Shown: one piece after another, positions 482 through 63,237 of the stretch
Position numbering within the stretch: the first letter of the stretch is position 1
How the letters are laid out: every line of letters begins with the position of its first letter
Assembly (NCBI GenBank): GCA_012295275.1
Contig: CM022665.1
Coordinates: 372,001 to 436,000 of the forward strand
DNA: 64,000 nucleotides
Source: Chrysomallon squamiferum
Taxonomy: Eukaryota > Animalia > Mollusca
Direction: 5' to 3'
Position numbers and translations under genes: made by a program
Notes under the pieces: model-generated
Database searches by the model: none
What the model was told of the DNA's origin: nothing
Seen by the model: only the letters and a program-made list of their open reading frames with translations

Positions 482-547
482 GTTTAACCTATGAACTAAC
501 GGAAATCATGGCACAGAAAACTTGTCCCACATTAAGCACAATAAAAG
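482..547 (+). CDS. IAP-A upstream 66-nt phase 1-1 exon ([21 protein letters not shown])
   Basis: Acceptor tgaaattacag|, donor aag|gtatgt. Joins exon 1408 in frame. The upstream intron is homologous to the intron preceding 22465 in copy B. Confidence 0.6.
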
Positions 548-3500
548 GTATGTACAATTTAATTTATTTTGTTTTTACAATTTTGTAAATTTAGTAATTT
601 TGGAAAGATGATGAAAGAACACAGAAAGTAGTAAAAAATAAATATATTATTACATGATTAAACCTTCTTAGATTAGAGTCATGCTTTATGTAACACGTCA
701 CGCTCGTTTTATTAAAACCTAATTTGGGTATTCGTCATCATCCGTAATGACTTTTGACTTGAGGGTTTTCGTAAATTTGTTGTTGTTTTTCTAAACTTTA
801 TATATATATATATATATGTATATTTTTATATTTAATTTTTTTTTTAATTTCTGTTCGTTCAATAATTTTGTATCTACGATTAAAGATCACAGTGTTTGTA
901 TTTGAAATATTATTTTTTAATAAAATGATTATAATGAGAATAAACTTTGTTAATTTTGTTTCATGTCTTCGACAATTTATTTATTAATAAGAAGATAATT
1001 ATCTAAGTCTTACTTTGGATCTTGAACAGTTTTATTTTTTGCCTCTCGTCTATTTTCTGCTTAACTGACTATTCCTGACGTTCTCATGTACTCTGATGAA
1101 TGCTACTTCTTTAGAAGAGAAATAATTTTTCTATCTTCTTGTTGTAAAAAATCATTTAAAACATAAACGCTTAATTTTCTATCTGAAAATGATCTGCGAA
1201 TGAAAAATGTTTTCAAGATTGTAAATGAAATTTAAAATGAACATCCATCTTAAAATGAACTTCCTTACCACTGATATTCAATGATGTTTTCCAGGGAATA
1301 AATCATATAAAATGAAAACAAAACTCTCAACATGATTAACCTATAGTTTGTAAGTCTATCAGACACACAGAATATTTTAAATTTTACATAAATGTTTTAT
1401 CTTATAGACACGTCAGCAATGAGAAGTGATGAGAGAGAACAGCTGAGAAGTGATGAGAGAGAACAGTTGAGAAGTGATGAGAGAGAACAGAGTAGAAGTG
1501 ATGAGAGAGAACAGTTGAGAAGTGATGAGACAGAACAGTGGAGAAGTGATCAAAGAGAACAGCTGAGAAGTGATGAGAGAGAACAGTTGAGAAGTGATGA
1601 GACAGAACAACTGAGAAGTGATGAGATAGAACAGCTGAGAAGTGATGCGATAGAACAGTTGAGAAGTGATGAGACAGAACAGTTGAGAAGTGATGAGACA
1701 GAACAGTTGAGAAGTGATGAGACAGAACAGGTGAGAAATGATGAGACAGAACAGCTGAGAAGTGATGAGATAGAACAGCTGAGAAGTGATGAAATAGAAC
1801 AGTTGAGAAGTGATGAGACAGAACAGTTGAGAAGTGATGAGACAGAACAGTGGAGAAGTGATGAGACAGAACAGTTGAGAAGTGATGAGACAGAACAGTT
1901 GAGAAGTGATGAGACAGAACAGTGGAGAAGTGATGAGACAGAACAGTTGAGAAGTGATGAGAGAGAACAGTTGAGAAGTGATGAGACAGAACAGTGGAGA
2001 AGTGATGAGACAGAACAGTTGAGAAGTGATGAGACAGAACAGTGGAGAAGTGATGAGACAAAACAGTGGAGAAGTGATGAGACAGAACATTTGAGAAGTG
2101 ATGTGAGAGAACAGTTGAGAAGTGATGAGACAGAACAGTGGAGAAGTAATGAGACAGAACAGTTGAAAAGTGATGAGAGAGAACAGCTGAGAAGTGATGT
2201 GAGAGAACAATTGAGAAGTGATGAGAAAGAACAGCTGAGAAGTGATGAGAGAGAACAGTTGAGAAGTTATGAGACAGAACAGTTGAGAGGTGATGAGACA
2301 GAACAGTGGAGAAGTGATGAGACAGAACAGCTGAGAAGTGATGAGACAAAACAGTGGAGAGGTGATGAGACAAAACAGTGGAGAGGTGATGAGACAGAAC
2401 AGTGGAGAAGTGATGAGAGAGAACAGCTGAGAAGTGATGAGAGAGAACAGTTGAGAAGTGATGAGAGAGAACAGAGTAGAAGTGATGAGAGAGAACAGTT
2501 GAGAAGTGATGAGACAGAACAGTGGAGAAGTGATCAAAGAGAACAGCTGAGAAGTGATGAGAGAGAACAGTTGAGAAGTGATGAGACAGAACAACTGAGA
2601 AGTGATGAGATAGAACAGCTGAGAAGTGATGCGATAGAACAGTTGAGAAGTGATGAGACAGAACAGTTGAGAAGTGATGAGACAGAACAGTTGAGAAGTG
2701 ATGAGACAGAACAGGTGAGAAATGATGAGACAGAACAGCTGAGAAGTGATGAGATAGAACAGCTGAGAAGTGATGAAATAGAACAGTTGAGAAGTGATGA
2801 GACAGAACAGTTGAGAAGTGATGAGACAGAACAGTGGAGAAGTGATGAGACAGAACAGTTGAGAAGTGATGAGACAGAACAGTTGAGAAGTGATGAGACA
2901 GAACAGTGGAGAAGTGATGAGACAGAACAGTTGAGAAGTGATGAGAGAGAACAGTTGAGAAGTGATGAGACAGAACAGTGGAGAAGTGATGAGACAGAAC
3001 AGTTGAGAAGTGATGAGACAGAACAGTGGAGAAGTGATGAGACAAAACAGTGGAGAAGTGATGAGACAGAACATTTGAGAAGTGATGTGAGAGAACAGTT
3101 GAGAAGTGATGAGACAGAACAGTGGAGAAGTAATGAGACAGAACAGTTGAAAAGTGATGAGAGAGAACAGCTGAGAAGTGATGTGAGAGAACAATTGAGA
3201 AGTGATGAGAAAGAACAGCTGAGAAGTGATGAGAGAGAACAGTTGAGAAGTTATGAGACAGAACAGTTGAGAGGTGATGAGACAGAACAGTGGAGAAGTG
3301 ATGAGACAGAACAGCTGAGAAGTGATGAGACAAAACAGTGGAGAGGTGATGAGACAAAACAGTGGAGAGGTGATGAGACAGAACAGTGGAGAAGTGATGA
3401 GAGAGAACAGTTGAGAAGTGATGAGACAAAACAGTGGAGAGGTGATGAGACAAAACAGTGGAGAGGTGATGAGACAGAACAGTGGAGAAGTGATGTTGCC

Positions 3501-5471
3501 TCTAATGATTCTCATCAAAGTTCTTCACAGCTCAGTCTCAGTAATTTACCAATCCTTCAGCTGTCCGGTTTTATGTCTGGAAGCTCCTCTACATCAGCCC
3601 CGACACTGCATGCACTACGTCACAGCGACTACTTCAACGTACAACGAAGTATTTCGTCTTTTGAACACCGATGGGCACATCCTGACATCCGGTCTCTGAG
3701 AGAGCTGGCAGAAGCCGGTTTCTTCATCTCTGGTTAGTGTTACTGCTGTTTAATTAGAAATCTTCACATTTTAGTAATCATTTGCAAATCTTCTTCGACT
3801 GCTCTATATTTTTTATCATTTACATTTTAAGTCTTTTACATTTTAATGTTCATTTGCTAATAAGACTTGAAATTACTGACATTTTACCTGACGTTTTAAT
3901 ATTGATATAGTCATTTCAGAATTTTGAGACTGATTTTGAATTTGGGTATTTTGACAGTCATCTGAAATCTCTGAAAGATCGATTGCAACATCATACATTA
4001 AGTTTTATGTATATGTATGTATTTCTATATGTGTGTATTTCTATGTGAGTGTCCATCTATGTGTGTATGTGTTTGTGTGTCAGTATTAGCAGAGTTTTGG
4101 TGGATGTATGTGTCACAGGAAATGTATACAGTTATGAACAAGTACATTCATGTATAAACAGGCAATTCACGTGATAGCACGTCCTGCTTTTACTGCGGAG
4201 GAGGACTTAGAAATTGGAAGCAGGGAGATAACCCTTACGTGGAACACGCCAGATGGTTTCCACGATGTGATTTCATCAGACAGGTGAAGGGAGACAGTTT
4301 TGTTGATTTAGTTCAAGAAATGAATGAAAATGAAGAGGAGGTAACTAGTTGACATTTTTAATTTTACCATGAAATTATTAAACTTGTGTAACTACATATA
4401 TTTGTGTTTTCACAAGGATTTGAACAGTTTCTTAAATTTAATTTATATTTTGTAATCTTTATTTTCTCTTTCCTTGGATATTTTGTTTATTATTTGCTTA
4501 TTTAATTAGTTAAGTTAGTTTTAAAATTTCGGTTATCTTATGTTTTTGTGTCATTATTATTATTACAATTATTATTTATGTTCTTTTTTTAGTACTACTA
4601 CTGCTGGTACTATTGTCATTATTGTTGCTGTTGTTGTTGTTATTATATCATTAATCTATTTTAGAGCAACTGTAACACAGATATTAATCTACATGGAGAA
4701 ACGAGTGACGAATTTATCGAAACAACAAGAAACAGAGAACTTGGAGCTTCAGGTATATTGTTGTTTTATTTCATTCATTTTATTATTTTCATTTTATAAG
4801 TATTGTTGTTATTTCTTCTTTTTTTTTTTTTTTTTTGCTGTTGATATTAGTATTGTTATTAATGTTATTGTTACAATTATCATGACTACTCGTTTTGTTT
4901 TGGTTGTTGTTGTTATTATTATTATTATTATTATTACTACAATTACATTTTATTCATTTATTTTTGTATTATTATTTATTTATTTATTACTGATGTTGTT
5001 ATTATTGTTATTGTTGTTGTCATTGATGTTAGCTGTAATGAAATTATTATTATTATTATTATTATCATTATTATTATTACTGTTGTTGTTGTAACATGAT
5101 ATATTTAAGAAAGAAAGAAATACATAAACATTTTTTGTATATTCGTCTACAAATTATTTGTTTCAAAGGTTATGTGTAATAAACATTTCAAGTTATTTGA
5201 TTTATTTTAAACTGTCCTTTGTTACAAAATACACACATTATTTAACGTATAAGAATTATATTGTTCTTAATACGTTATCTGATATTTAACAGATTCCTTG
5301 CCGGGTGGTAATGAGGAACTCATCTGCAAAGTTTGTCTTGAAAAGAAGGTCAGAATAGTTTTCCTGCCCTGCGGTCATCTTTGTTGCTGTGAAGATTGTG
5401 CGCCCAGACTGCGAATATGTCCACTCTGTAGAGAGATAATCCTAGCCACTGTGCGAGCTTTCTTGTGTTAA
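482..5471 (+). CDS. IAP (BIR-RING, BIRC-family E3 ligase) paralog A, spliced, probably 5'-partial: exons 482-547, 1408-3732, 4162-4340, 4665-4752, 5293-5471; acidic repeat + one BIR + RING
   Basis: All introns are GT..AG with compatible phases (1,1,0,1). The spliced frame is open to TAA at 5469-5471 and contains a BIR (CFYC-X16-H-X6-C) and a C-terminal C3HC4 RING typical of IAPs. Confidence 0.85.
1408..3732 (+). CDS. IAP-A large exon: about 86 octapeptide repeats, short Ser-rich segment and N-terminal half of the BIR ([14 protein letters not shown]...[11 protein letters not shown])
   Basis: Within ORF 1392..3737; acceptor cttatag| at 1407, donor tctg|gttagt at 3733; LAEAGF BIR motif. Confidence 0.85.
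1422..3494 (+). repeat. Coding 24-bp minisatellite (AGAAGTGATGAGACAGAACAGTTG-like, about 86 units) with an internal 984-bp (41-unit) higher-order duplication
   Basis: Directly visible. Rare variants recur at +984: agtaga 1491/2475, gcga 1647/2631. Confidence 0.97.
4162..4340 (+). CDS. IAP-A BIR C-terminal exon ([48 protein letters not shown]...)
   Basis: acag| acceptor, gag|gtaact donor; CX2CX16HX6C zinc ligands. Confidence 0.92.
4665..4752 (+). CDS. IAP-A linker exon ([29 protein letters not shown]), phase 0-1
   Basis: ttttag| acceptor, cag|gtatat donor. Phase bridges the BIR and RING exons; 3' part resembles copy B exon 26157-26231. Confidence 0.7.
5293..5471 (+). CDS. IAP-A terminal RING exon ([52 protein letters not shown])
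   Basis: aacag| acceptor; IAP-type C3HC4 RING ending close to the C-terminus. Confidence 0.93.
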
Positions 5472-5599
5472 TCTGATTCTAACCATTTTTATTATAATTT
5501 ATTTTTATTTTTCTATTTTATAATAATTATTACTATTATTATTATTATTATTTTTTTTTTTTTTTTTTTTTTTTTAAGATGACGATATGTTGAATTTTA

Positions 5600-8755: not shown

Positions 8756-8899
8756 AAAAAAAAAAAGGCTTAACATGAAATATATTAATAATATCTTGAT
8801 ATATACATAGTGCAAAATAATATAAATTTTATCCTCACTGTCATCATAAGATTACTCAAGTTTTACATGAAAACCTTCTTCAGGTAAGTAGATAATTAA

Positions 8900-9530
8900 A
8901 TCTAACCATAATGCTAAACCTCACCCTAACAGTAAACCTAACACTAACACTAAACATAACCCTGATGCTAACATTAACCCTAAACCTCACCCTAACACTA
9001 ACACTAACACTAACACTAAACATAACCCTGATGCTAACATTAACCCTAAACCTCATCCTAACACTAACACTAACACTAAACATAACCCTGATGCTAACAT
9101 TAACCCTAAACCTCATCCTAACACTAACACTAACACTAAACATAACCCTGATGCTAACATTAACCCTAAACCTCACCCTAACAGTAAACCTAACACTAAC
9201 ACTAAACATAGCCCTGATGCTAACATTAACCCTAAACCTCACCCTAACACTAACGCTAACACTAAACATAACCCTGATGCTAACATTAACCCTAAACCTC
9301 AACACTAAACATAACCCTAACACTAACACTAACACTAACACTAAACATAACCCTGATGCTAACATTAACCCTAAACCTCATCCTAACACTAACACTAACA
9401 CTAAACATAACCCTGATGCTAACATTAACCCTAAACCTCATCCTAACATTAACCCTAAACCTCATCCTAACACTAACACTAACACTAAACATAACCCTGA
9501 TGCTAACATTAACCCTAAACCTTACCCTAG
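8900..9530 (+). repeat. Telomere-like minisatellite: 60-bp higher-order unit built from degenerate TAACCC/TAACAC hexamers; short pure TAACCC remnants at about 9690-9730
   Basis: The 60-nt line at 9061 is repeated almost exactly at 9121 and, with one extra hexamer, around 9001; hexamer periodicity throughout. Confidence 0.9.
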
Positions 9531-12697: not shown

Positions 12698-13431
12698 ATG
12701 TACATAATTATATGGCAGTATATTTATTCGTTATCCCACGAACCCTCTTTAACAGTAAACAAAAAAATGTACGAGAAAATAATACAGATATACATGCGAG
12801 ATCCCATAGTACATAACATACATGACACATCGAAATGTATATCGATCAAATCAGAAGAAGTCTTCTTTAACATAATAGGTTATAAATATATACAGCAGTG
12901 TATTCAAAACAATAATAAAAGTAACTACTGGTGTTCAGTCAAGTGTTTGTTCACTGGTAGATTTAATTTTTGAACAGTTTTATGATAAGAATGATACATT
13001 GTATTATTTTAGTGTTGTTCATTGTAGAAAACTGTAACAAGAAATAAAATAGTTTGAAAAAATTAAAATGTCGTGTTCTTATGTTACGAATAATATATTT
13101 CTATGTTATTATTTCCATCATCATTTTCATAATTATTATTATTATTGTTAACAAAAATTAACATTATTATTGTAATTGTTGTTGCTACTGTTATTATTAT
13201 TATCGTTATTGTTATTGTTGTTGTTGTTGATGTTATTATTGTTATTGTTGTTGCTATTGTTATTATTGTTGTTGTTTTTATTATTGTTATCAAGGACGTA
13301 TCAGATAACTTTACCATAAAATCAGCTCAGAGATATCAATGGAGTTTAACAGAAAGTGATTCCTGGGCCCACCCTTCAGGCTACGCCCTGCGATACTTGA
13401 TATACCTTACATACATTACTGAACAGTGTGC

Positions 13432-13491
<60 letters not shown>

Positions 13492-13757
13492 AAATTACAT
13501 GATCACGCTAACTAACTTTATGTATTTTGTTTGTTTGTTATTTTAAGTGTTTTACAATTACAGTTAAAATGGTTTTATTTTATAAATTACAAATGATTAT
13601 GAGGACGGGAAAGCGGGCCCATTTATCAAAAAGCTAAGTTGTTTGTTGTATTTTACATTTTATTTTTACTTCCTTTCTGCCCAAAAAATGTGTCGCATTA
13701 ATCACTTTTATTTTTCTTTACTTCTCTGATTTATTGTTCTTATTACTATTGTTGTTG

Positions 13758-13813
<56 letters not shown>

Positions 13814-13967
13814 GTTATTGTTATTATTATTATTATTATTATAATTTTAATACTTTATTTTATGTTGTTCGTCTTTCTTTTTAAATTTTCTTTCGTTGGA
13901 GATGTCACAATTAAAAATAATTAACCGATATTTTTAAAACAAGTTCAAATTACATACAATTATGTAC

Positions 13968-13999
<32 letters not shown>

Positions 14000-14194
14000 T
14001 AATAAATTACATGACCAAGCTAAATAACTTTATATATTTGTTTGTTTGTTTATTTCAAAAGGTTTACTTGTTTGTTTTTTCCTATTATATTTTCTTTTTC
14101 CTTGCTTTCTACCTTAAAAATGACTCATGTTTTTTAGTTACCTTTTTACTTTCCTTTAATTCTCTTATTTATTATTATTAACATTATTATTAAC

Positions 14195-14239
<45 letters not shown>

Positions 14240-16120
14240 TTAATACTTGGTCAAGAAACGTGTTTATTTTATATTGTTCGTCTTCCTTTTAAAAATGTTT
14301 TCGTTGGGGAAAATGTCGAAATTAAGAATAATTAACCGATGTTTTTAAAACAAGTTAAAACTGCAATACATATAACAAGGAGAGAATATCTTGTGAATAT
14401 ATATGGTTCTAATTTAAACAATACAAAGTTGTTGTTGTTGTGACGATTTTAACCATCTGAAATCACAACTAAAAATTACCAAGAACTTGAAATTATATGA
14501 TTTAAAAGATCTATTTACAAAACTGTATTCTAATCTTCTAAAATAAAAAAAAATAAAAAGAAAAAAGGAAGAAGAAGAAAAGAAAAAGGAAACTCAGTAA
14601 CAATAAAAACTTTTAAAAAAGCTATACTAGACTTATTATCTAACAATCTGATGTACAAAAAGTGTAACAGAAAATAATTATCACTTGGTCGTCTCGGTTA
14701 TACTTTTAAATTTAAACTTTAGTCAATTTAAAAGAGATGAAGTAGAGTGGGAATTTAATTATTCTTTATTATTAATTATTTATTATATAAGTAAAAAGAA
14801 AACAGAAAGCAATAAGAAAAATAACGAGTCTGTACGCTGTGCCAGTCTATAACTTAGAAGACTTAGATTTGCAACCCCGAAAGATTATAACAAGTTTTCT
14901 ATCAAAAGTCAATTTAGAAATATTACTAATGTAAATAAGAGCGTAAGCTCATCTTTATCTGTATTTAAGAAAAAAAAAAAAATAATAAAATATAAATAAA
15001 TAAATAATGTTTGCGCCTACGTCAACTTTTACTAGAATAAAATATAATGTACTCAGGTAAATAAAAAAATAAAAAAAATAAGTTAAGTTAAATTAAATTA
15101 AATTAAACTAAATTAAATTAAATTATATTTGTTGCCTAGATTATGATATTTTCTTACTAGCGGTTCAAAGTCGCCAAGTTTGTTTATATCACTTTGTACA
15201 CGTAATTTCAGTCACGTGATCGTTCCGACATAGAAACGACCGACACACATAGAAACGACCCATCTAATGAATCGAGGTGTCTGAGCTGTTCTTTACGGAA
15301 ATAATTTGATTCGGAATTTAGGTAAGTTTACAAAAAATTTAATAACGGGTTTATGTATCTAGTAAGTTATGATATTATTCTCTATAGCAGTTAGATTTCT
15401 GGAATGTTAACAAGTTTATTTATATCACTTTTGTACACGTAATTTGAAAACGTGATCGTTACGAGGTCGAGAAAACCCGTATACATTGTGTTGTCATTTT
15501 TAATATATCGAAGAGTTTGAGCTGTTCTTTATAGAAACAATGTTACTAGGAATTTAAGTAAGTTTACAAAACTTTTAACAACAGTTTTCTGTAATAATTT
15601 ATGCCTGTAAATATATATTTATTTCGGTAGATAGATTTATGTTTTTTTTAAATGTATGAAACTGATTTTAACTTTACTTCCTTGTTTACTTTGTGTAAAT
15701 TTCCACAGCTAATAACGAAGCTTTTCTCGTCGATTTTATTCGATTCAGTGAGTGACGTAAAACATGTGTTTTAAAGGTAATAGGCACGTAGAACTTGGAT
15801 TTAGTTAATAGTTTAATAACATGACCTGTGCTTGAAATAATAATTAGGTTTTAACATATATTATTATATTCAGATAATTTGTTACAAACGGCACTAGAAG
15901 GTCATAACTTTTGACCCGTTTCTGTCCCTAGACTTTTGAATATCATTTTTTATTAATAGGAGTTTATAGTGTAAATGCTAAGACAAATATTTAATATTAT
16001 TAGATTAATGTTGCTAACTTTATAAAATATTTCCGTGTTATTTCTTTCGTTTCTGAAACCGAAACCGAAACCTCTGTTGCTTACAACGGACTAAAATATT
16101 TCCGGGAACGTTCGAGAACT
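12698..16120 (+). repeat. Outer inverted segmental duplication, left arm (upstream region of IAP-B); partner about 60445-63973
   Basis: Colinear reverse-complement matches, e.g. near-identical ORF translations 13084..13317(-) and 63347..63580(+); 16095-16119 matches 60447-60471. Confidence 0.9.
15180..16120 (+). promoter_or_regulatory. Putative IAP-B promoter/first-exon regulatory module
   Basis: E-box GTCACGTGAT (15211), donor tttag|GTAAGT (15322), ACTTCCTTGTTTAC FOX:ETS-like (15677), TGACGTAA (15753), GAAACCGAAACCGAAAC ISRE (16055-16071), TTCCGGGAA GAS (16100-16108), GAAcgTTCgaGAA HSE (16106-16118). Confidence 0.55.
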
Positions 16121-16401
16121 GTGTATATAATTATTTACCACAGATTTAATTCATTTGAAAGGAACCCATCTTCTCCTGCAGGAATTTTCTGAGCTTGTCA
16201 GTGACATTCTCCGACAAACAAAGTAAGACGAGTCAGATAAATATGTATTCATTTGAATATCAGATTCAAGATCTCAAACAGAAAATTTGTGAATAATATT
16301 TACAGCTATAAAATGTCAGTAGTACAATGCTAAACAGGCTAGCTGGAAATAGGCTCCATTGATGTTAATTTTATAATGTTTATTTTAATTTCATATTACA
16401 G

Positions 16402-16515
16402 AACGTAGAGATCTAAAAGATAAACAGAGGAAAATGGGAATATCAAACTGTCCGTGGACGCTGCACTACAGTACAAAGTCACTAAAAATGAAAAACACAA
16501 GAGATTCATCTAGAG
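16402..16515 (+). CDS. IAP-B candidate upstream cassette exon, type alpha, 114 nt, phase 1-1 (RRDLKDKQRKMGISNCPWTLHYSTKSLKMKNTRDSSR); candidate ATG at 16434
   Basis: catattacag| acceptor, gag|gtaaat donor; only the phase-1 frame is open. Confidence 0.5.
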
Positions 16516-17726
16516 GTAAATTTTTTAGTTTAATGTTTTCTTAACTGTGATGAAAGAACACATTGTTTTGTTTGATAAATTGTAATTTATAAACTGAATG
16601 TTATCAGATCAAACTGGTAGTCATTTCAGCAGCAATTTACTTTTGAATAAGAACATAACTGTCTAATTTTACTCTGGAAGGATGTCTTAGTTGAGGACCG
16701 TTAAGGGTTTCTTCTGTTGTCTACTTTGTTTTTAAATGTAAAACTTAGTTTTTGATGAAAATTATTTCATTTATTTGATTTTGTTTTTGTATCTTATTAA
16801 TTTGATAAGACATGTACCACACAAACATTTAATTTTGTGCGTAGAAATCCTTTCTAAATAATAAAAGGCCTCAGTTTTAATCATCAAACTTAAAATCACT
16901 GCTGGCTTCTTTTAATATGAATGTTTTTATTTTTAAATTTGCCATATTCAACATGTTTAAATTAAATATGTATCTTAATTATACATTCACATGTACTGAA
17001 CTTTACAGTATATGTTTATCTTAGAATTTTATTAATTCAGCAATGACATTTGGATGTAGGTGCTTAATGACAAATAGTTGTATCAGGATTGAATATCACC
17101 TCTAAATTGTTGATAATTTATGAAAAACTTCATTTACATGAATAATAATAAACAAACGCTCAGTCTATTTTGTTTTCAACTGAGCTCTGATACTTTAGAA
17201 GTATCTTAATTATTCATTCACGTTTCGAAATTTATAGAAAATGTTCATCTTACAGATTTATTAATTCAGCAGTGACATCTGCACGTAACTGCTTAATGGC
17301 AAATAGCTGTATCAGTTGCAGGAGTAGTTGCTAAATACGCTAGTTAGCTACTTCTAAAAAAGGTTGAGAAGTAAATCTTTGCTACAAAGTGGTTTTCTCA
17401 CTTTTTCTATGGAATATTTAGTTAGCTGTTTTTAACAACACATGACTGTTAAAGACAGCAGTTTTGGAAGTATCATATCGGGATGTATTCATTGTCTTCT
17501 CAAGAAATGTTTGTCAATTTGTCAAAGTGAAAACTTCCAGTAAAGAATGAAAATCAACCAAAACAAATACGAACATTCGTATTAGTTTTAGCGACTTATT
17601 TTAGTGAAAATTTGTAAATAATCTTTACTGCGATAAAATGTCAGTAGTACAATGCTAAACAGGCTAGCTGGAAATAGGCTCCATTGATGTTAATTTTATA
17701 ATGTTTATTTTAATTTCATATTACAG

Positions 17727-17840
17727 AACGTAGAGATCTAAAAGATAAACAGAGGAAAATGGGAATATCAAACTGTCCGTGGACGCTGCACTACAGTACA
17801 AAGTCACTAAAAATGAAAAACACAAGAGATTCATCTAGAG
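17727..17840 (+). CDS. Duplicate of cassette exon 16402-16515
   Basis: Same exon sequence and splice sites within the 1325-bp duplication. Confidence 0.45.
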
Positions 17841-19602
17841 GTAAATTTTTTAGTTTAATGTTTTCTTAACTGTGATGAAAGAACACATTGTTTTGTTTGA
17901 TAAATTGTAATTTATAAACTGAATGTTATCAGATCAAACTGGTAGTAATTTCAGCAGCAATTTACTTTTGAACAAGAACATAACTGTCTAATTCTACTCT
18001 GGAAGGATGTCTTAGTTGAGGACCGTTAAGGGTTTCTTCTGTTGTCTACTTTGTTTTTAAATGTAAAACTTAGTTTTTGATGAAAATTATTTCATTTATT
18101 TGATTTTGTTTTTGTATCTTATTAATTTGATAAGACATGTACCACACAAACATTTAATTTTGTGCGTAGAAATCCTTTCTAAATAATAAAAGGCCTCAGT
18201 TTTAATCATCAAACTTAAAATCACTGCTGGCTTCTTTTAATATGAATGTTTTTATTTTTAAATTTGCCATATTCAACATGTTTAAATTAAATATGTATCT
18301 TAATTATACATTCACATGTACTGAACTTTACAGTATATGTTTATCTTAGAATTTTATTAATTCAGCAATGACATTTGGATGTAGGTGCTTAATGACAAAT
18401 AGTTGTATCAGGATTGAATATCACCTCTAAATTGTTGATAATTTATGAAAAACTTCATTTACATGAATAATAATAAACAAACGCTCAGTCTATTTTGTTT
18501 TCAACTGAGCTCTGATACTTTAGAAGTATCTTAATTATTCATTCACGTTTCGAAATTTATAGAAAATGTTCATCTTACAGATTTATTAATTCAGCAGTGA
18601 CATCTGCACGTAACTGCTTAATGGCAAATAGCTGTATCAGTTGCAGGAATGGTTGCTAAATACGCTAGTTAGCTACTTCTAAAAAAGGTTGAGAAGTAAA
18701 TCTTTGCTACAAAGTGGTTTTCTCACTTTTTCTATGGAATATTTAGTTAGCTGTTTTTAACAACACATGACTGTTAAAGACAGCAGTTTTGGAAGTATCA
18801 TATCGGGATGTATTTATTGTCTTCTCAAGAAATGTTTGTCAATTTGTCAAAGTGAAAACTTCTAGTAAAGAAAGAAAACCAAGCAATACAAATAGAGCAT
18901 TCGTATTAGTTTTAGCGACATATTTTAGTGAAAATTTGTAAATAATCTTTACTGCGATAAAAAACCAATAATGATACTCGACAATGCAAAAAATGTTTAT
19001 CTTTATTTATGTTACTGAAATTACAGATGTAACAGAGGAATCAGTAAAGCGACAGTTGATCTGAACTATTGTAAAAAGTTAGAAAGTGTGAAAGACTGGT
19101 GTAAATAACATATATATATAATTATTTGTTAACTTTCTTTTCTAACTGCGGTAAAACAACGTACTTGCTGGTGAATGGGTGTTACTTTAATATTTTAAGC
19201 AAAACTCTAATGATTTTCAATAATAATGTCTAAAACAAGTCACGAACAAGTTTATGTTTATTAATAAAATGACAGAAGAATGCAAATCAGGTTTAATCAA
19301 TTTCAAAGGAATCCAATGTCTCCTGAAGGAATTAAGTAAACTTGTCAGAGAAATTATCCAATAAAAAAAGAAAATCGAGTAATATAAATTTGATTCATAA
19401 AATATGGATAGGTATTAATTTCAATATCTTGTATAGTTTATCAGATCCAAGATATCAAACAGAAAATTTGTTAATACTATTTGGTGTTATAAAATGTCAG
19501 TAGTATTTTTCTTTACAATGCTAAACAGGCTTCCTGGAAATAGGGTCACCCACAATTGAGTGATTTGAATTTTTAAATGTTTATTTTAATTTCATATTAC
19601 AG

Positions 19603-19710
19603 AACGTAGAAATGAAAAATATTACCTGAGGAAGAAGGAAATATCACAATTCACATGGGAAATGTCGAATAGTACATATTCAATAAAGCTGACAAAGACA
19701 AGTAATTCAG
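19603..19710 (+). CDS. Diverged type-alpha cassette exon, 108 nt, phase 1-1 (RRNEKYYLRKKEISQFTWEMSNSTYSIKLTKTSNS)
   Basis: Same acceptor context (catattacag|aacgtaga), donor cag|gtaaat; frame open despite many substitutions. Confidence 0.5.
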
Positions 19711-20762: not shown

Positions 20763-20846
20763 ATGTAACAGAGGAATCACAGAAAAGTCAGTTGACGGAG
20801 AAGTTTTGTAACAAATCAGAAACAGTGAAAGACAAGTGTAATTCAG
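20763..20846 (+). CDS. Type-beta cassette exon, 84 nt, phase 1-1 (VTEESQKSQLTEKFCNKSETVKDKCNS)
   Basis: ctgaaattacag| acceptor, cag|gtacat donor; open frame. Related degenerate copies start at 19027, 21025 and 21777. Confidence 0.5.
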
Positions 20847-22464
20847 GTACATAATTATTTGTTAACTTTCTTTTCTAGGTGTTATAAAACAACGTACTTT
20901 CTGATGAATGGGTGTTACTTTTTTAGCGAAAATTTGTAAATAATTTTTAGTGCCTTAAAACCCCAGTGATATAACTCGACAGCAGCAGAAATGTTTATAT
21001 TTATTTATATTGGTGAAATTATAGAACAAAGAGAGGAATCGATGAAGAGTCAGTGAAGATTGTTGTAAATTGTTATCACCATCACCATCATCATCATCAT
21101 CATTATTATTATCATTATTATTATTTTTTATTTATTTATTTATTTATTTGTTTGTTGTTTTACCAACAGCAAATGTGTCTACATTTCCATCTTAATGTTG
21201 CATTTGATCATAAGTGCCAAACTCTCCTAAAAGTAGTTCGGCAATAAAATACTGACATTTTGTAATCTGAGTAGCTTATAGGACCCTATCACGTGTATCT
21301 TTTAATATATTTTATATTTTATCAGATTCAAGATATGAAACAGAAAATCGAGTGATATAAATTTGATTAATAAAATATGTATACGTATTAATTTTAATAT
21401 CTTGTATAGTTTATCAGATTCAAGATATCAAACGGAAAATTTGTGAATAAATATTTGCTGTTATAAAATGTCAGTAGTATTTTTTACAATGCTAAACAGC
21501 TTCCTGGAAAGAGGGTCACCCACACTCCACTGATGTTAATTTTAAAATATTTATTTTAAATTTCATATTTACTGAAATGAAGTAAGAAAAATTGAAAGAT
21601 TAAAGTTCGCAAGGCAAGACAAGAAAATCAACCAATGCAATTATCTGCTGTCATATTAATTTTAGTGACTTTTTTAATGAAAATTTATAAATAATTTTTA
21701 GTGCCGTAAAACGCCAGTAATATTACTCGACAGCAGCAGAAATGTTTATCTTTATTTATGTTACTGAAAATTGCAGATCTAACAGATAAGTTAGTGAAGA
21801 ATCGGTTCATGCTGAACCGTTGTATAGAATCAGAAAGATGTAATTATTTGTAAACTTTCTTTTCTAACTGTGATTAAACAATGTGATTTTACTAAAGGTA
21901 ATAAATAGATTGTTACGATTTATTATCATTATTATTATTATTATTTATTTATTTATTTTTGGTTTGTTGTTTTACCAGCAGCAAGTGCGTTTTAAAGAAT
22001 GCATAAATACAGGGTCTCAATTTCCATCTTAATGTTGCATTTAACTATAACAGCCAATCTTGCTTCTAAAAGGAGTTCGGCCATAAAATATTCATATTTT
22101 GTAATCTGATTAGCTCAAAGGACCCCACCACGTGTATCTTTCAATAAATATACAAACATCAACATCTATAACGTATTTAACTAGTGCACATGTATCAACG
22201 ACTTTAGCAACACTGGAATGCTGTAAGGGTATTATACTGACCTGTATCAAAATTCGTCAAAAACAGTAATCTCAGAACTTCATTAATGTCCTGGTTTCGT
22301 TGTCAGAACGTTTATCTGTCTATGACTGTGCATTCTACTAATCTGAATAACGACCACATGAGAAAATAAGATGAAAACATAATAATTTTCTTATAATCGA
22401 AAACTGATGTTAATTCTTAAATTTTAAATAATTTTTTTTTCTTTTTTTTTTTCTGAAATAACAG

Positions 22465-23690
22465 AACAGCTGAGTGAAGAGACAGAACAGTTGAGTGAAG
22501 AGACAGAACAGTTGAGTGAAGCGATAGAACACCTGAGTGAAGAGACAGAACAGTTGAGTGAACAGACACAACAGCTGAGAAGTTATGAGACAGAACAGTT
22601 GAGTGAAGAGAGAGAACAGTTGAGGAGTGAAGAGACAGAACAACTGAGAAGCGATGAGACAGAACAGCTGAGAAATGATGAGAGAGAACAGCTGAGAAGT
22701 GATGAGAGAGAACAGCTGAGAAGTTACGAGACAGAACAGCTGAGAAGTGATGAGACAGAACAGTTGAGTGAAGAGACAGAACAGCTGAGAAGTGAAGAGA
22801 CAAAACAGTTGAGAAGTGATGAGACAGAACAGTTGAGTGAAGAGACAGAACAGTTGAGTGAAGAGACAGAACAGCTGAGAAGTAACGAGACAGAACAGTT
22901 GAGTGAAGAGACAGAACAGCTGAGTGAAGAGACAGAACAGCTTAGAATTGATGAGAGAGAAGAGTTGAGAAGTGATGAGACAGAACAGTTGAGTGAAGAG
23001 ACAGAACAGGTGAGAAGTGAAGAGACAGAACAGCTGAGAAGTGATGAGACAGAAGAGTTGAGTGAAGAGACAGAACAACTGAGAAGTGATGAGACAGAAC
23101 AGTTGAGTGAAGAGACAGAACAGGTGACAAGTGATGAGAGAGAACAGCTGAGAAGTGACGAGACAGAACAGTTGATTGAAGAGACAGAACAGCTTAGAAC
23201 TGATGAGAGAGAAGAGTTGAGTGAAGAGACAGAACAGCTGAGAAGTGATGAGACAGAACAGCTGAGTGAAGAGACAGAACAGCTGAGTGAAGAGACAGAA
23301 CAGCTTAGAACTGATGAGAGAGAAGAGTTGAGAAGTGATGAGACAGAACAGTTGAGCGAAGAGACAGAACAGTTGAGCGAAGAGACAGAACAGCTGAGAA
23401 GTGATGAGAGAGAACAGTTGAGTGAAGAGACAGAACAGCTGAAAAGTGATGAGACAGAACAGCTGAGAAGTGAAGAGATCGAACAGCTGAGAAGTGATGA
23501 GACAGAACAGCTGAGAAGTGAAGAGAGAGAACAGCTGAGAAGTGAAGAGACAGAACAGCTGAGAAGTGAAGAGAGAGAACAGCTGAGAAGTGAAGAGACA
23601 GAACAGCTGAGAAGTGATGAGAGAGAACAGCTGAGAAGTGAAGAGACAGAACAGCTGAGAAATGATGAGACAGAACAGTTGAGAAATGAT
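22465..23690 (+). repeat. Coding minisatellite of interspersed 21-bp (LSEETEQ) and 24-bp (LRSDETEQ) units
   Basis: Directly visible in DNA and translation. Confidence 0.96.
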
Positions 23691-24621
23691 GAATTATGGA
23701 CAGAACATTCAGACATTGTCAGATACAGGAAGGAGTGGGACCGATATGCGTCTTACTTACGATTTTCTCTAACCTCAGCCTGGCCAAGTGGTCTTGCAGC
23801 TGCTGGATTCTACTACACTGGGACTGGTGATCGCGTTGTCTGCTTCAGCTGTGGTCAGAGCTATGATCACTGGAGAGCCGGAGAAATCCCAATAGAAATT
23901 CACGGACAAATCTCTCCAAGCTGCAGATTTGTCCTGGGAGAGGAAGAAAATGAACCGATTCGGGTAAGTGAGAATGCTGAGCAGATTGTACAAGAATTCC
24001 TGGGCAGATTAACTGTCAGTTCAGTGTTACCAGCTGTTCAAAGTGAAACACTTCGTAATCGGAGCGAATCTGAAAGTTCAGTTATTGACAATGAACTGTT
24101 TGGAGTCTCTGAAACACCAAGAAATAACGTCGACGACATCGTTACCTCTGTTGGTCATGAAAATATTGACATATCTGCTGTTAGTTTGACTGGAACTCTA
24201 GCATCAGCTACTAATACCAGCTGTATGCCTACATTTACTGTTTATATTTGTAGTATACCCTCAAGCACTGTTTCATCTACATCTACTGTTAATATCAGTG
24301 ATATGGCTACAAATACTGTTTCACTTCCTGATAATGCTGCAGTTCTTTCTTTTACCGGTCAGAGTTCTGTCAGTGGTGGTGCTGTTGCCTCTAATGATTC
24401 TCATCAAAGTTCTTCGCAGCTCAGTCTCAGTAATTTACCAATCCTTCAGCTGTCCGGTTTTCTGTCTGGAAGCTCCTCTACATCAGCCCTGGGATTGCAT
24501 GCAGCACATCACATGGACTATGTCAACGTACAACGACGTATTTCGTCTTTTGAACATCGATGGCCACATCCTGACAACCATTCTTCGAGAGAACTGGCAG
24601 AAGCCGGTTTCTTCTTCTCTG
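22465..24621 (+). CDS. IAP-B large exon: mixed hepta/octapeptide acidic repeats, BIR1 (about 23724-23933), Ser/Thr-rich linker, first half of BIR2
   Basis: ORF 22491..24626; acceptor ctgaaataacag| after a long T tract; donor tctg|gttagt. Confidence 0.9.
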
Positions 24622-25820
24622 GTTAGTGTTACTGCTGCTTAATTAGAAATCTTCACATATTAATAATAATGTTAATTTCAATGGTAACTTAAAACCTTGA
24701 CATTTTAATAGGCACTGGAATTTTGGGACATTTTAATAGTCATTTGAAATCTTTGGTATTTTAATAATTATTTCTAAACCTTTGACATTTTTATAGTCAC
24801 TTGATGTCTTCGACGTTTCAGTAGATATTTAAAATGTTTGATATTTTAATAATCATATAGAATCTTTGATATTTAAATAGTGAAATTAAATTGTCAGAAT
24901 TCAACCTTTATTGCGAATTTGGACGTTTTGGTAGACATTTGAATACTTCAGTATTTTAATAATCATTTGACGTTTTTGACAGTTAAATAATCATGTGAAG
25001 ATCTTGAATGTTTAACAGTTTTTTGAAATTATTTGTTATTTTTAATTCTTACAGCATGAAATACATTTGAGAAGCAAGCGAAATATCATACAAAAAACAA
25101 AAACATAAAAGAAACCAAATAATGTAATGAAATGAAATAAAATAAAATAAATAAATAAATAAATTTAGGTACACATGAATATTTGTCTGTCTTTCAGACA
25201 GAAGAAAAACGAAAAACAAAATTATTAAGAACTAAAGACAAAACACAAAATAAAGTCACACAAACATAATTTCTTTGGTGTACAATTTTATTTTGTTGTT
25301 ATTTTATATAACATTTTCAAATTTTACTCAAGCTAATTTTCATATTTTATTAATGAAAATACCGTGTGTGGCTGTGTGTGTGTGTCAAATGAAATGTATA
25401 CAGTTATGAACAAGCACATTTATGTATACACAGGTAATTCACGTGATAGCACGTCCTGCTTTTACTGTGGAGGAGGACTTAGAAATTGGATGCAGGGAGA
25501 TAACCCTTACGTGGAACACGCCAGATGGTTTCCACGATGTGATTTCATCAAATATGTGAAGGGAGACAATTTTGTTGATTTGGTTCAAGAAATGAATGAA
25601 AATGAAGTGGAGGTAACTGGCTGAAATTTTTAGCTTTATCATGAAATTATTAAACTTTTGTATAAATATGTGTAGTTGTGTTTACACTAGGAATTCACCA
25701 ATTTCTTAAATTTAATTTAATTTTTCTAATCTTTTCTCTTTATGTTTATTACTGTTTTTATTGTTTGTTTTTATTTATTTATTTAAATTAGTTTGAAATT
25801 TTTATTATATTAATTTTTTT

Positions 25821-25859
<39 letters not shown>

Positions 25860-26890
25860 AAAATATGTCATTAATGTTTTTAAATTTATTTTAGATTAAC
25901 TATGACCAAGTGATGGATATTTTAAATGACTGTCGACCTACATTTGAACGTCTTGGAATTAAAACACATCAAGGTAAGTTTTAAAGTTAACAAAATTCTA
26001 GATTTATCAACAAGATTCTATAGATTGCACAGTTTCACAAATTAATGTCAAGATAAAAGTATTTAATAGTTTACATCCCATAAAAGTATCATTTTAAATG
26101 AGATCACGTCGGTAGTACTAATATTATAAATATCGTTTTTCATTTTGTTCGCATAGTTGATAAATTCCTTATATCTGAAGAAAAAAGTGGCGAATGTAAT
26201 GAAACAAGAAACACAGAACTTGCAACTGCAGGTATAGTGCAGTTTTATTTCACTACATTTTATTTGTTTATTTGTTTGTTTGTTTGCTTGCTTGTTATTA
26301 TTGTTTATATTATTGTTATTGTTAGTTATTATTAATATTGTTGTGTTATCATTACTGCTGTATTTTGTCTTGTTATCGTTTTTATTGTTACTATTATTAT
26401 TAATATTACTAGTATTATATTTTACTTGTTTATTATTTATTTATTATGAATGTTATTGTAGTCATTGATTATTATTATTATTATTATTATTAATAATATT
26501 ATTATTATTATTATTATTGATACCCGATATATTTAGGAAAGAAATACAGAAAACCTTTCTGTATATTCGTAAAACCTTGTGAAGATCAAATCTACAAACT
26601 ATTTGCTTAGAAAGGTTATGTGTAAGAAAGTATACAAGTTACTAAGTCTAAATGTTACTTAACGTATAAAAACTATATTATCTTTATTACGTCCTCTTTG
26701 ATATTTAATAGATTCCTTGCTGGATGATAATGAAGAACTCATCTGCAAAGTTTGTCTTGAAAACAAGATCAGAATAGTGTTCCTACCCTGCGGTCATCTT
26801 TGTTGCTGTGAAGATTGTGCGCCCAGACTGCGAACATGTCCACTTTGTAAAGAGATAATCCTAGCCACTGTGCGAGCTTTCTTGTGTTAA
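22465..26890 (+). CDS. IAP (BIR-BIR-RING) paralog B, core exons 22465-24621, 25434-25612, 25895-25973, 26157-26231, 26712-26890
   Basis: GT..AG introns with phases 1,0,1,1; open to TAA at 26888-26890. BIR1 ([22 protein letters not shown]16-H-X6-C), Ser/Thr-rich linker, BIR2 (CFYC-X16-H-X6-C), RING (CKVC...[12 protein letters not shown]...CPLC). Confidence 0.9.
24690..25030 (+). repeat. Degenerate intronic minisatellite of about 30 bp (gacattttaatagtcatttgaaatcttt-like); shorter version in copy A at about 3760-3970
   Basis: Recurring (g)acattttaata/atattttaataat...tttgaa motifs. Confidence 0.55.
25434..25612 (+). CDS. IAP-B BIR2 C-terminal exon
   Basis: Part of ORF 25364..25624; 179 nt as in copy A; [11 protein letters not shown]...EHARWFPRC. 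Confidence 0.92.
25895..25973 (+). CDS. IAP-B linker exon 1 ([26 protein letters not shown]), phase 0-1
   Basis: ttttag| acceptor and aag|gtaagt donor; open frame. Confidence 0.7.
26157..26231 (+). CDS. IAP-B linker exon 2 ([24 protein letters not shown]), phase 1-1
   Basis: gttcgcatag| acceptor and cag|gtatag donor; homologous to the 3' part of copy A exon 4665-4752. Confidence 0.65.
26712..26890 (+). CDS. IAP-B terminal RING exon
   Basis: aatag| acceptor; [49 protein letters not shown]. Confidence 0.93.
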
Positions 26891-43540: not shown

Positions 43541-43672
43541 TATTTCATTGTACTTGATTTATTTATCTCGTTAGTTAGTTTTCTTTTCTTCGTTTTCTTC
43601 TTTTTTTATGCTATATTTTTCTTTACTATTGTTTTCGTTATTATTATTATTATTATTGTGTTGTTGTTACTG

Positions 43673-43872
43673 NNNNNNNNNNNNNNNNNNNNNNNNNNNN
43701 NNNNNNNNNNNNNNNNNNNNNNNNNNNNNNNNNNNNNNNNNNNNNNNNNNNNNNNNNNNNNNNNNNNNNNNNNNNNNNNNNNNNNNNNNNNNNNNNNNNN
43801 NNNNNNNNNNNNNNNNNNNNNNNNNNNNNNNNNNNNNNNNNNNNNNNNNNNNNNNNNNNNNNNNNNNNNNNN
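43673..43872. other. Assembly gap (200 N)
   Basis: N run. Confidence 1.
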
Positions 43873-52549: not shown

Positions 52550-53419
52550 CATGACTTAGGCGCAAACATTATTTATTTATTTATTTATATTTTCTTTTTT
52601 TCTTTTTCTTAAATACAGAAAAAGATGAACTTATTCTCTTATTTACATTAGTAACATTTCTAAACTGACTTTTGATTGAAAACTTCATTTCATTTAAATT
52701 TTCTAAGTTAGAGATTGGTACCGCGTAGACTCATTATTTTTTTTATTGTTTTCTTTTTTGCTTTTACTTATTTAACAAAGAATTAATAATAATAAGTTAT
52801 TAAATTTCCACTCTCCTTAACCTTTTTTAAATTGACTAAAGTTTAAATTTAAAAGTATAACCGAGAGGATCAAGTGATAACTATTTTCTGTTACACTTTT
52901 TGTACATCAGATTGCTAGATAATAAGTCTAGTATAGCTTTTTTAAAAGTTTTTTTTTTCTTGTTACTGAGGTTCCTTTTTCTTTTCTTCTTCTTCCTTTT
53001 TTATTTTTCCTTTTTTTTTATTTTAGAAGATTAGAATACAGTTTTGTAAATAGATATTTTAAATCATATACCTTAAAGTTCTTGGTAATTTTTTTTGGTG
53101 ATTTCAGATCGTTTATAGGTATGTAAATTTGTATAGTTAGTACCAAATTAAAATCGTTATATATCATATATTATTTTATTGAATTGTTCAGTACAGTCTA
53201 AAATATGTTTAAAAAACAACAACAACAACTTTGTATTGTTTTAATTAGAACCATATATATTCACAAGATATTCTTTCCTTATTATATGTATTGCAGTTTT
53301 AACTTGTTTTAAAAACATCGGTTAATTATTCTTAATTTCGACATTTTCCCCAACGAAAGAAATTTTAAAAGGAAGACGAACAACATAAAATAAACACGTT
53401 TCTTGACCAAATATTAAAA

Positions 53420-53450
<31 letters not shown>

Positions 53451-57907: not shown

Positions 57908-57938
<31 letters not shown>

Positions 57939-62400: not shown

Positions 62401-62476
<76 letters not shown>

Positions 62477-62714
62477 GTTAATAATAATGCTAATAATAAT
62501 AAATAAGAGAATTAAAGGAAAGTAAGAAGGTAACTAAAAAAACATTTTTAAGGTAGAAAGCAAGGAAAAAGAAAATATAATAAGAAAAACAAACAAGTAA
62601 ACATTTTGAAATAAACAAACAAACAAATACATAAAGTTATTTAGCTTGGTCGTGTAATTTATTATCTTGTCTCTCTCCCCCCCCCACACACACACACACA
62701 TACACACACACACA

Positions 62715-62746
<32 letters not shown>

Positions 62747-62884
62747 GATACATACACACACAAGTACATAATTGTATGTAATTTGAACTTGTTTTAAAAA
62801 TATCGGTTAATTATTTTTAATTGTGACATCTTCAACGAAAGAAAATTTAAAAAGAAAGACGAACAACATAAAATAAAGTATTAA

Positions 62885-62919
<35 letters not shown>

Positions 62920-63191
62920 CAACAACAACAATAGTAATAAGAACAATAAATCAGAGAAGTAAAGAAAAATAAAAGTGATTAATGCGACACATTTTTAGTG
63001 CAGAAAGGGAGTAAAAAGAAAATAAGAAAAACAACAAACAACTTAGCTTTTTGATAAAAGGGCCCGGTTTCCCATCCTCATAATCATTTGTAATTTATAA
63101 AATAAAACCATTTTAACTGTAATTGTAAGACACTTAAAATAACAAACAAACAAATACATAAAGTTAGTTAGCGTGATCATGTAATTTATTA

Positions 63192-63237
<46 letters not shown>

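What the first reader, a model, noticed from the sequence alone, without database searches (positions are those of the whole stretch)
1422..3494. IAP with a giant in-frame acidic octapeptide array, a possible caspase-decoy or spacer domain
Seen: about 86 copies of [L/W]RSDETEQ fused in frame ahead of a BIR-RING, with about 410 aa of related repeats in paralog B. All unit lengths are multiples of 3 and no stop occurs, although TTG, TGG, CAG and GAG codons are each one change from a stop. Established: canonical IAPs combine BIR, UBA, CARD and RING domains; caspases cut after Asp, with (W/L)EHD preferred by inflammatory caspases, and some cut after Glu. Inference: repeated (W/L)RSD and DETE/EETE tetrapeptides, with a disfavoured acidic P1' after RSD, could act as a multivalent caspase pseudo-substrate, or the array may simply be a length-tunable charged spacer. 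I do not know of this architecture being described.
Basis: partly seen in the sequence, partly recalled or inferred. Interest (0 to 1): 0.8.

Follow-up and report, generated by a model that had tools for sequence, protein, structure and literature searches.

The report
Snail IAPs with swappable repeat leader
Two neighbouring cell-death-inhibitor (IAP) genes of a likely vent snail carry a 400-700-residue acidic peptide repeat in frame ahead of their BIR domain, and their closest relatives in another snail carry a different repeat at the same spot, so it is likely a length-tolerant spacer rather than a caspase decoy.

Summary
Gene A has 86.5 copies of a 24-nt unit (692 aa) in frame ahead of a BIR-RING; paralog B has 53 units (409 aa) ahead of BIR-BIR-RING. 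Two corrections: half of A's array is one perfect 984-bp duplication (very recent, or an assembly artefact), and A lost BIR1 by an in-frame 690-nt deletion. The lack of stops alone is not significant (P 0.10-0.14), and substitutions in the array look neutral (7 synonymous of 31). The caspase-decoy idea is not supported: Arg sits at P3, there is no DxxD or W/L-E-x-D, and B keeps [LW]RSD in only 13 of 53 units. The closest relatives, three Gigantopelta aegis IAPs in one clade with A and B (100/99), carry a different repeat (5-aa, Ser/Asp-rich; 34, 189 and 304 aa) directly before BIR1. Position is kept; sequence and length are not. Best reading: a coding minisatellite acting as a sequence-independent spacer. 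A role in slowing IAP turnover is the bolder untested option. No transcript joining A's array to its BIR was seen. I found no description in print and no earlier scan note on this locus.

The parts
482..547 (+). Gene A upstream exon, 66 nt, phase 1-1, open in frame with the array exon; holds an in-frame ATG; splicing predicted
1408..3732 (+). Gene A large exon: acceptor, ATG at 1419, array, Ser-rich segment, first half of BIR
   Evidence: 3' splice matched by RNA contig joints (contigs may be from paralogs)
1419..3494 (+). Array A: 86.5 x 24 nt, consensus LRSDETEQ, 692 aa, net charge -0.17 per residue, 12 Lys, 0 Pro
2405..3410 (+). Exact copy of 1421-2426 (period 984 = 41 units, 0 differences in 1006 bp): very recent duplication or assembly artefact
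3495..3611 (+). Ser-rich segment before the BIR; starts at the deletion junction, homologous to B from 24384
3612..3732 (+). First half of A's only BIR (homologous to BIR2 of B)
4162..4340 (+). Second half of A's BIR, all four zinc ligands; closely matches cIAP1 BIR chains
4665..4752 (+). A-specific linker exon, phase 0 to 1
   Evidence: RNA contig X9 record 31 matches 4664-4752 with 0 differences and stops fitting at both exon ends
5293..5471 (+). RING exon of A with stop codon
16402..16515 (+). Gene B candidate upstream phase 1-1 exon (duplicate at 17727-17840; diverged homolog at 19603-19710)
20763..20846 (+). Gene B candidate upstream phase 1-1 exon; related copies near 19028, 21027 and 21778 look decayed
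22465..24621 (+). Gene B large exon: array, BIR1, Ser/Thr linker, first half of BIR2
22467..23693 (+). Array B: 32 x 24 nt plus 21 x 21 nt units, 409 aa, net charge -0.28, 2 Lys, 0 Pro
23694..24383 (+). BIR1 and most of the linker of B: the 690 nt missing from A
25434..25612 (+). Second half of BIR2 of B
25895..25973 (+). B linker exon, shared with G. aegis IAPs (58-61% identity); its start is seen as an RNA loose end after exon 4162-4340
26157..26231 (+). B linker exon before RING
26712..26890 (+). RING exon of B with stop codon

Best explanation
A coding minisatellite sits in frame in the large BIR exon of a snail IAP subfamily and likely acts as a sequence-independent, length-tolerant spacer ahead of the BIR-RING ubiquitin-ligase part. 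It likely grows and shrinks by slippage and unequal crossing-over. Selection appears to keep the frame open, and perhaps a hydrophilic, acidic, proline-free character, but not any motif. Shown: the in-frame array, its neutral-looking substitutions, shared variants between A and B, and a different repeat at the same place in G. aegis. Inferred: translation of the whole array, the spacer role, and its shape (long solvated helix or coil). Gene A then likely arose from a B-like gene by an in-frame deletion of BIR1, starting at the array edge, which left array-BIR-RING.
For: A, B and three G. aegis IAPs form one clade (100/99; 47 of 48 rows used, one too short). All three G. aegis proteins have a repeat ending just before BIR1, but with a 5-aa Ser/Asp unit and lengths of 34, 189 and 304 aa. 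BLASTP found no match between the window arrays and the two G. aegis proteins tested, while BIRs and RING matched at 54-78%. Array variants: 7 synonymous of 31, against 18-28% expected if neutral; the six invariant positions are all A, which suggests mutation bias. 13 variants are shared between A and B (p 7e-4), so the arrays share ancestry or exchange. No frameshift or stop in either array (rough joint P 0.004). No acceptor-like site inside either array (at most 7 of 18 pyrimidines, against 8-12 at the true acceptors), so the array is hard to splice out. RNA contigs splice the BIR intron at the predicted GT-AG in both RNA runs and lie on the last array units.
Against: Keeping a repeat at one position in two lineages may reflect a function that depends on composition, not mere tolerance. 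The A-versus-B dN/dS on BIR-RING is 0.70 and not significantly below 1 (p 0.33), so A may be under relaxed selection. RNA contigs on the array end cannot be assigned to a locus: a microsatellite in the intron also drew high depth. Only one other species was available, and its proteins are database gene models. Strong donor-like sites inside the arrays could shorten the array in mRNA.
Confidence: 0.55

Rival explanations
1. The array is a cis-acting turnover control. A long acidic, lysine-poor, low-complexity leader would slow proteasomal degradation or translation of this self-ubiquitinating IAP, so array length would set the protein level of each paralog, as the central repeats of gammaherpesvirus LANA and EBNA1 do.
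For: Both lineages' repeats are net negative, proline-free and lysine-poor (Lys 12/692, 2/409; G. aegis 0/34, 0/189, 1/304). Insect IAP leaders control turnover (PMC4966970, passages). Herpesvirus central repeats are divergent in sequence, variable in size, often acidic, and the LANA-1 CR2-CR3 junction slows translation and degradation (PMC6333680, passages).
Against: Analogy only; nothing was measured. Lysine poverty traces to just two seed units and could be chance. The TPxxS degron of insect leaders is absent (0). Lys variants have spread in A (12 residues).
Confidence: 0.17
2. The array has no role. It is a neutral expansion in a redundant, possibly decaying paralog family, or is largely cut from the mRNA, and the 86-copy size is partly an assembly artefact.
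For: Neutral substitution pattern and non-significant stop deficit. dN/dS 0.70, n.s.. A lost BIR1 and a linker exon and has Ile at the G-x-x-Y position. Perfect 984-bp duplicate. Donor-like CAG|GTGAGA at 1731, 2715 and 23010.
Against: Both genes are fully open with all zinc ligands. No indels in the three shared coding exons, against 20 in 1923 non-coding bases. An RNA contig matches A's own exon with 0 differences and stops fitting at both exon ends. A repeat is kept at the same place in 3 of 3 G. aegis relatives found.
Confidence: 0.15
3. The array is a multivalent caspase decoy or cleavable leader, binding or being cut by caspases at its Asp or Glu residues.
For: An Asp recurs in most units in both lineages (S[SI]D 4, 30 and 54 times in G. 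aegis, mostly followed by Ala or Val). DxxE occurs 74 times in A. Caspases can cut after Glu at reduced efficiency.
Against: P3 is Arg rather than the preferred Glu. 0 [LW]ExD, 0 DxxD, 0 DETD in 139 units; B keeps [LW]RSD in 13 of 53 units; no purifying signal on the motif. Motif not shared with G. aegis.
Confidence: 0.05
4. The array folds into an oligomeric rod, either a phage gp5-type triple beta-helix or a coiled coil, that clusters BIR-RING heads.
For: Pfam Gp5_trimer_C scores 95 bits (cut-off 30.9) on A's exon and 56 bits on the first 328 aa. AlphaFold2 gives a long continuous helix at pLDDT about 85-97 over much of the array pieces.
Against: Array B gets no Pfam hit, and its mixed 7/8 units break an 8-residue register. 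No gp5 or VgrG chain among solved structures matched. The models are helical, not beta. One hydrophobic residue per 7-8 is too few for a coiled coil (established knowledge). The G. aegis units are Ser/Asp/Asn-rich and drew no such family.
Confidence: 0.05

Closest known systems
Gigantopelta aegis IAPs XP_041354958.1, XP_041350670.1, XP_041379548.1 (P0154, P0067, P0021)
   Same: Same clade. Same layout: leader, tandem repeat directly before BIR1, BIR1, linker, BIR2, and RING in two of the three. The second BIR half is 76-81% identical. Repeat length differs between paralogs.
   Different: 5-aa Ser/Asp/Asn unit, 34-304 aa, near neutral to weakly acidic, no Glu. The window's units are 7-8 aa, Glu-rich, 409-692 aa. 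Gene A lacks BIR1.
Lophotrochozoan DIAP1-like BIR-BIR-RING IAPs and mollusc IAP expansions (PMC13159474: abstract, section 8, passages; PMC7831173: passages)
   Same: Tandem paralogs, N-terminal BIR in one exon, C-terminal BIR split over two exons, C-terminal RING. BIR loss by internal deletion is described (Bombus terrestris, about 300 bp).
   Different: The parts I read classify by domains only and mention no peptide-repeat leader. Supplements were not read.
Insect cellular IAP N-terminal leaders (PMC4966970, passages citing Vandergaast 2015)
   Same: A leader before BIR1 of a BIR-BIR-RING IAP.
   Different: Those carry a TPxxS degron and a caspase site. Here TPxxS and DxxD are absent, and the leader is a long tandem array.
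Gammaherpesvirus LANA/EBNA1 central repeats (PMC6333680, passages)
   Same: Position kept, sequence divergent, size variable, often acidic; LANA CR3 is E/Q/L-rich.
   Different: Viral nuclear proteins with no homology. The effect on turnover is shown there and untested here.

Membership tests
IAP (BIR-containing protein) | At least one BIR with C-x2-C-x6-W-x9-H-x6-C zinc ligands | tested here: met
   Pfam BIR above cut-off for A and B exons; spacing read; pattern from PMC13159474
IAP (BIR-containing protein) | G-x2-Y aromatic position of the BIR pattern | tested here: not met
   A has Ile there; B BIR2 and G. aegis have Phe; B BIR1 has Tyr. A minor departure.
RING-type IAP | C-terminal C3HC4 RING | tested here: met
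   PF13920 E 4e-14 (A) and 2e-14 (B)
RING-type IAP | E3 ligase activity and caspase or IBM binding | not testable with these tools
   By sequence the retained BIR aligns without gaps to a cIAP1 BIR chain (1qbh, E 3e-18); no assay
Lophotrochozoan DIAP1-like IAP | Two BIRs plus RING; first BIR in one exon, second split over two | tested here: met
   Met by B. A lacks the first BIR, so A is a one-BIR derivative.
Lophotrochozoan DIAP1-like IAP | First BIR of subgroup E2 (groove-blocking residues) | tested here: inconclusive
   Best single-domain PDB hits of B BIR1 (3m0a, 3m1d, 2pop) are BIR1-type chains by my recall; not placed in the paper's tree
Caspase pseudo-substrate inhibitor | Near-optimal, conserved P4-P1 tetrapeptide | tested here: not met
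   0 [LW]ExD, DxxD or DETD; Arg at P3; motif not kept in B or G. aegis
Phage gp5/VgrG triple beta-helix | Profile match | tested here: inconclusive
   Above Pfam cut-off for A, none for B; no solved-structure match
Phage gp5/VgrG triple beta-helix | VxG octapeptide with a turn glycine (motif recalled) | tested here: not met
   Gly in 8 of 86 A units and 0 of 53 B units
Single alpha-helix (SAH) spacer | Long solvated helix held by i+3/i+4 E-R/K pairs | tested here: inconclusive
   AF2 helix at high pLDDT; attractive versus repulsive pairs 164/132 in A but 63/101 in B; 28-33% Ser/Asp/Thr/Gly/Asn
PEST or TPxxS degron leader | Proline-containing acidic stretch, or TPxxS (PEST definition recalled) | tested here: not met
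   0 Pro and 0 TPxxS in both arrays

The most novel reading that the evidence does not exclude
Vent-snail IAPs of this clade have a repeat 'slot' before BIR1 that has been refilled with unrelated acidic, lysine-poor minisatellites. It works as a length-tunable cis brake on the IAP's own degradation or synthesis: a cellular counterpart of herpesvirus LANA/EBNA1 repeats that sets each paralog's anti-apoptotic dose by copy number.
Probability: 0.15. Interest if true: 0.72.

Novelty: new variant of a known kind. Interest (0 to 1): 0.4.

Why it matters
Surveys of IAP diversity count BIR and RING domains and would not see this. Here a subfamily keeps a repeat at one position while its sequence and length turn over completely between two snails, which gives a natural series (34 to about 690 aa) for asking what an IAP leader does. 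If it is only a spacer, it is a clean case of a tolerated coding minisatellite that also seeded a domain deletion. If length tunes half-life, it is a new way to dose IAPs, and directly testable.

Tried and rejected
No whole genome was held, so paralogs outside the window were not counted. Search for array homologs: 1 of 7992 scored candidates passed, a weak unrelated fish protein. The ESM Atlas gave no hit at 0.9 or above and low recognition. An exact two-unit DNA pattern found 0 matches in metagenome contigs. A BIR1 word search found 1 of 96 candidates, uninformative. P0024 (8-aa repeat x68, no BIR) matched by composition only. Three copies of an array piece in complex prediction gave 'no answer', score 0.00, which is no evidence either way. 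AF2 single-sequence models did not fold the BIR parts (pLDDT under 50), so they were not used for fold searches. The charge-hydropathy plot puts both arrays on the disordered side (scale and boundary recalled), but PMC10602382 (passages) shows it has no power for highly charged regions, so I set it aside. In the read laying, no listed contig bridged A's array-to-linker junction, and the joint 4340-4665 was not listed; 924 pieces were not shown, so this is no evidence. The leaders of G. aegis showed no significant match to the window's upstream exons (best E 0.45). Literature searches that gave no description of the architecture: (0 papers). One search gave nothing that I used.

Full report
1. 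Observation. TRF finds 86.5 copies of a 24-nt unit at 1420-3495 with 91% matches and no indels, and a related array at 22461-23689. The first is open from an ATG at 1419 through to half a BIR. With exon boundaries set by splice signals and phase, gene A (482-547, 1408-3732, 4162-4340, 4665-4752, 5293-5470) reads 944 aa without an internal stop, and gene B reads 888 aa from its array exon to the stop (a first attempt with off-by-one boundaries was corrected). Pfam gives BIR and RING on the expected exons.

2. Corrections to the picture. A has 26 distinct units among 86. Units 2-42 recur exactly as 43-83, with 0 differences in 1006 bp. Two other near-duplicates in the window differ (17 substitutions in 1324 bp; 32 plus 17 indels in 4447 bp). 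The copy is therefore very young or an assembly artefact; I cannot tell which, and put it near even. Without it A has about 45 units, close to B's 53. B is BIR1-linker-BIR2-RING. In A the array runs directly into sequence matching B from 24384, so 690 nt holding BIR1 are missing, in frame. B's array begins at an acceptor homologous to the one of A's exon 482, which suggests a second rearrangement at the other edge (inference).

3. Is the frame under selection? Taking distinct site variants as events, A and B together have 31: 7 synonymous, 24 replacement, 0 stop. Neutral expectation is 18-28% synonymous, and P(0 stops) is 0.10-0.14. Variants are spread 10/11/10 over codon positions, and the six invariant positions are all A. 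So the stop argument is weak alone, and there is no sign of selection on the peptide. Non-coding A-versus-B flanks show about 0.11 frameshifting indels per substitution (1923 aligned bases). That predicts about 3.3 in the arrays; none is seen (P 0.037; joint with stops about 0.004). This is rough, because AT-rich flanks may overstate the indel rate. A and B share 13 variants (p 7e-4), so the arrays have a common origin or exchange. On BIR-RING, dS is 0.10 and dN/dS 0.70, not significantly below 1.

4. Expression. Nine runs from 3 studies hold parts of 1380-5480, none half or more. I laid four of the nine (2 RNA, 2 DNA; 2 studies) on 3430-4930 at 85% likeness. Both RNA runs show the GT-AG joint at the BIR intron. 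Most listed RNA contigs differ from A and carry B-type loose ends, so several paralogs are transcribed. One RNA contig matches A's own exon 4664-4752 with 0 differences and stops fitting at both exon ends, as a spliced A transcript would. DNA contigs of both studies match A closely (1 difference in 231 bp; 0 in 120 bp). RNA contigs lie on the last array units (summed depth 697 and 8.8, against 0-5 in the unique intron), but an intronic microsatellite also drew 417 and 94, so their source is unknown. That A's whole array is in mRNA joined to its BIR remains unshown. Indirect support: no acceptor-like site lies inside either array, and database models of relatives hold an in-frame repeat at the same place.

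5. Relatives. The second BIR half hits 46 proteins. The highest identities over the whole query are three Gigantopelta aegis IAPs at 76-81% (accessions). In a tree of the last BIR (47 of 48 rows, one too short; bootstrap not fully settled) they group with A and B at 100/99. The window is thus likely from a related vent snail (inference). All three carry a tandem repeat ending just before BIR1, but of a 5-aa Ser/Asp unit, 34, 189 and 304 aa long, with no Glu, no Pro and 0-1 Lys. BLASTP of the window arrays against two of the three gave no match. Among 191 BIR proteins fetched, 11 have a detectable tandem repeat and 5 have one before the first BIR. The longest detected outside the window is 236 aa, in G. 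aegis (the detector missed the short repeat of P0021). Short repeats in IAP linkers are thus occasional, and arrays of this size were seen only in this clade. Whether the slot is ancestral and refilled, or expanded twice, cannot be told from two species.

6. Shape. AF2 without an alignment predicts one long helix for 98 residues of B (pLDDT 85-97) and for about 145 residues of A, with lower confidence beyond. It failed on the BIRs, so it is a lead only. About 40% of highly charged regions are helical, and charge-hydropathy plots do not predict them (PMC10602382, passages). Salt-bridge balance favours helix mildly in A and not in B. The Pfam gp5 hit on A is best read as 8-residue periodicity: B has none, glycine is rare and no solved gp5 chain matches. 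The Ser-rich G. aegis units are unlikely to be helical (established knowledge), so no one fold is kept.

7. Caspase decoy. Caspases prefer Glu at P3, and P1 Glu is cut poorly (PMC12550167, passages). The array has Arg at P3 and no [LW]ExD, DxxD or DETD in 139 units, though DETD is one base from DETE. [LW]RSD is in 68 of 86 A units and 13 of 53 B units. In its favour, an Asp recurs in most units of both lineages and DxxE occurs 74 times in A. I give it 0.05.

8. Mechanism. Best reading (0.55): a coding minisatellite that changes length by slippage and unequal crossing-over, is kept in frame, and serves as a sequence-independent spacer. Its edges also seed deletions such as the loss of BIR1 in A. 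Next (0.17): a cis brake on turnover, by analogy with insect IAP leaders (PMC4966970, passages) and herpesvirus central repeats (PMC6333680, passages). Then neutral or decaying (0.15), decoy (0.05) and oligomeric rod (0.05).

9. Known versus new. Mollusc IAP expansion, tandem duplication and BIR loss by deletion are described (PMC7831173, passages; PMC13159474, abstract, section 8 and passages). IAPs are listed among expanded G. aegis families (PMC7895826, passages). None of the text I read mentions a repeat leader, and searches gave none. I did not read the supplements of PMC13159474, which list architectures and may bear on this; most subscription papers are outside the library. Earlier scan notes had nothing near this locus or like its sequence but report repeat-built arms on other genes of this genome (unchecked), which would make such expansions a habit of this genome. 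Verdict: real, a new variant of a known family, interest 0.4.

Noticed in passing
window 1731, 2715, 23010: Strong donor-like CAG|GTGAGA sites inside the arrays, in phase 0. They would join in frame to the phase-0 acceptors at 4665 (A) or 25895 (B), giving array-RING isoforms with no BIR.
   Followed up: no
window 36600-62500: Many tandem and inverted copies of pieces of a block (14451-16159) that lies upstream of B and looks like promoter or 5' UTR micro-exons, with an N gap at 43673-43872. No BIR or RING there; 43493-43665 resembles the region of the pre-RING exon.
   Followed up: partly
window 12698-16159 and 60409-63973: Long inverted homology (87-89%), suggesting a further copy of B's upstream region on the minus strand.
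   Followed up: no
window 16281-18962; 52552-62458: Near-identical tandem duplications (98.7% and 98.4%); the first duplicates a candidate coding exon of B.
   Followed up: partly
window 16402-16515 versus 19603-19710: Homologous phase 1-1 exons whose peptides have diverged strongly while both stay open; several sister copies look decayed.
   Followed up: partly
window 3506-4386 (laid contigs): A DNA contig and an RNA contig go from the second BIR half back to a first half, pointing to paralogs elsewhere with tandem BIR exon pairs.
   Followed up: no
window 8897-9529: Degenerate telomere-like repeat with a 60-nt higher-order unit.
   Followed up: no
proteins P0002, P0062, P0169: Xenopus multi-BIR proteins (XP_031747014.1, OCT58935.1) have acidic 8-aa repeats after their BIRs, and Biomphalaria pfeifferi KAK0063304.1 has a 9-aa repeat in its leader.
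   Followed up: partly
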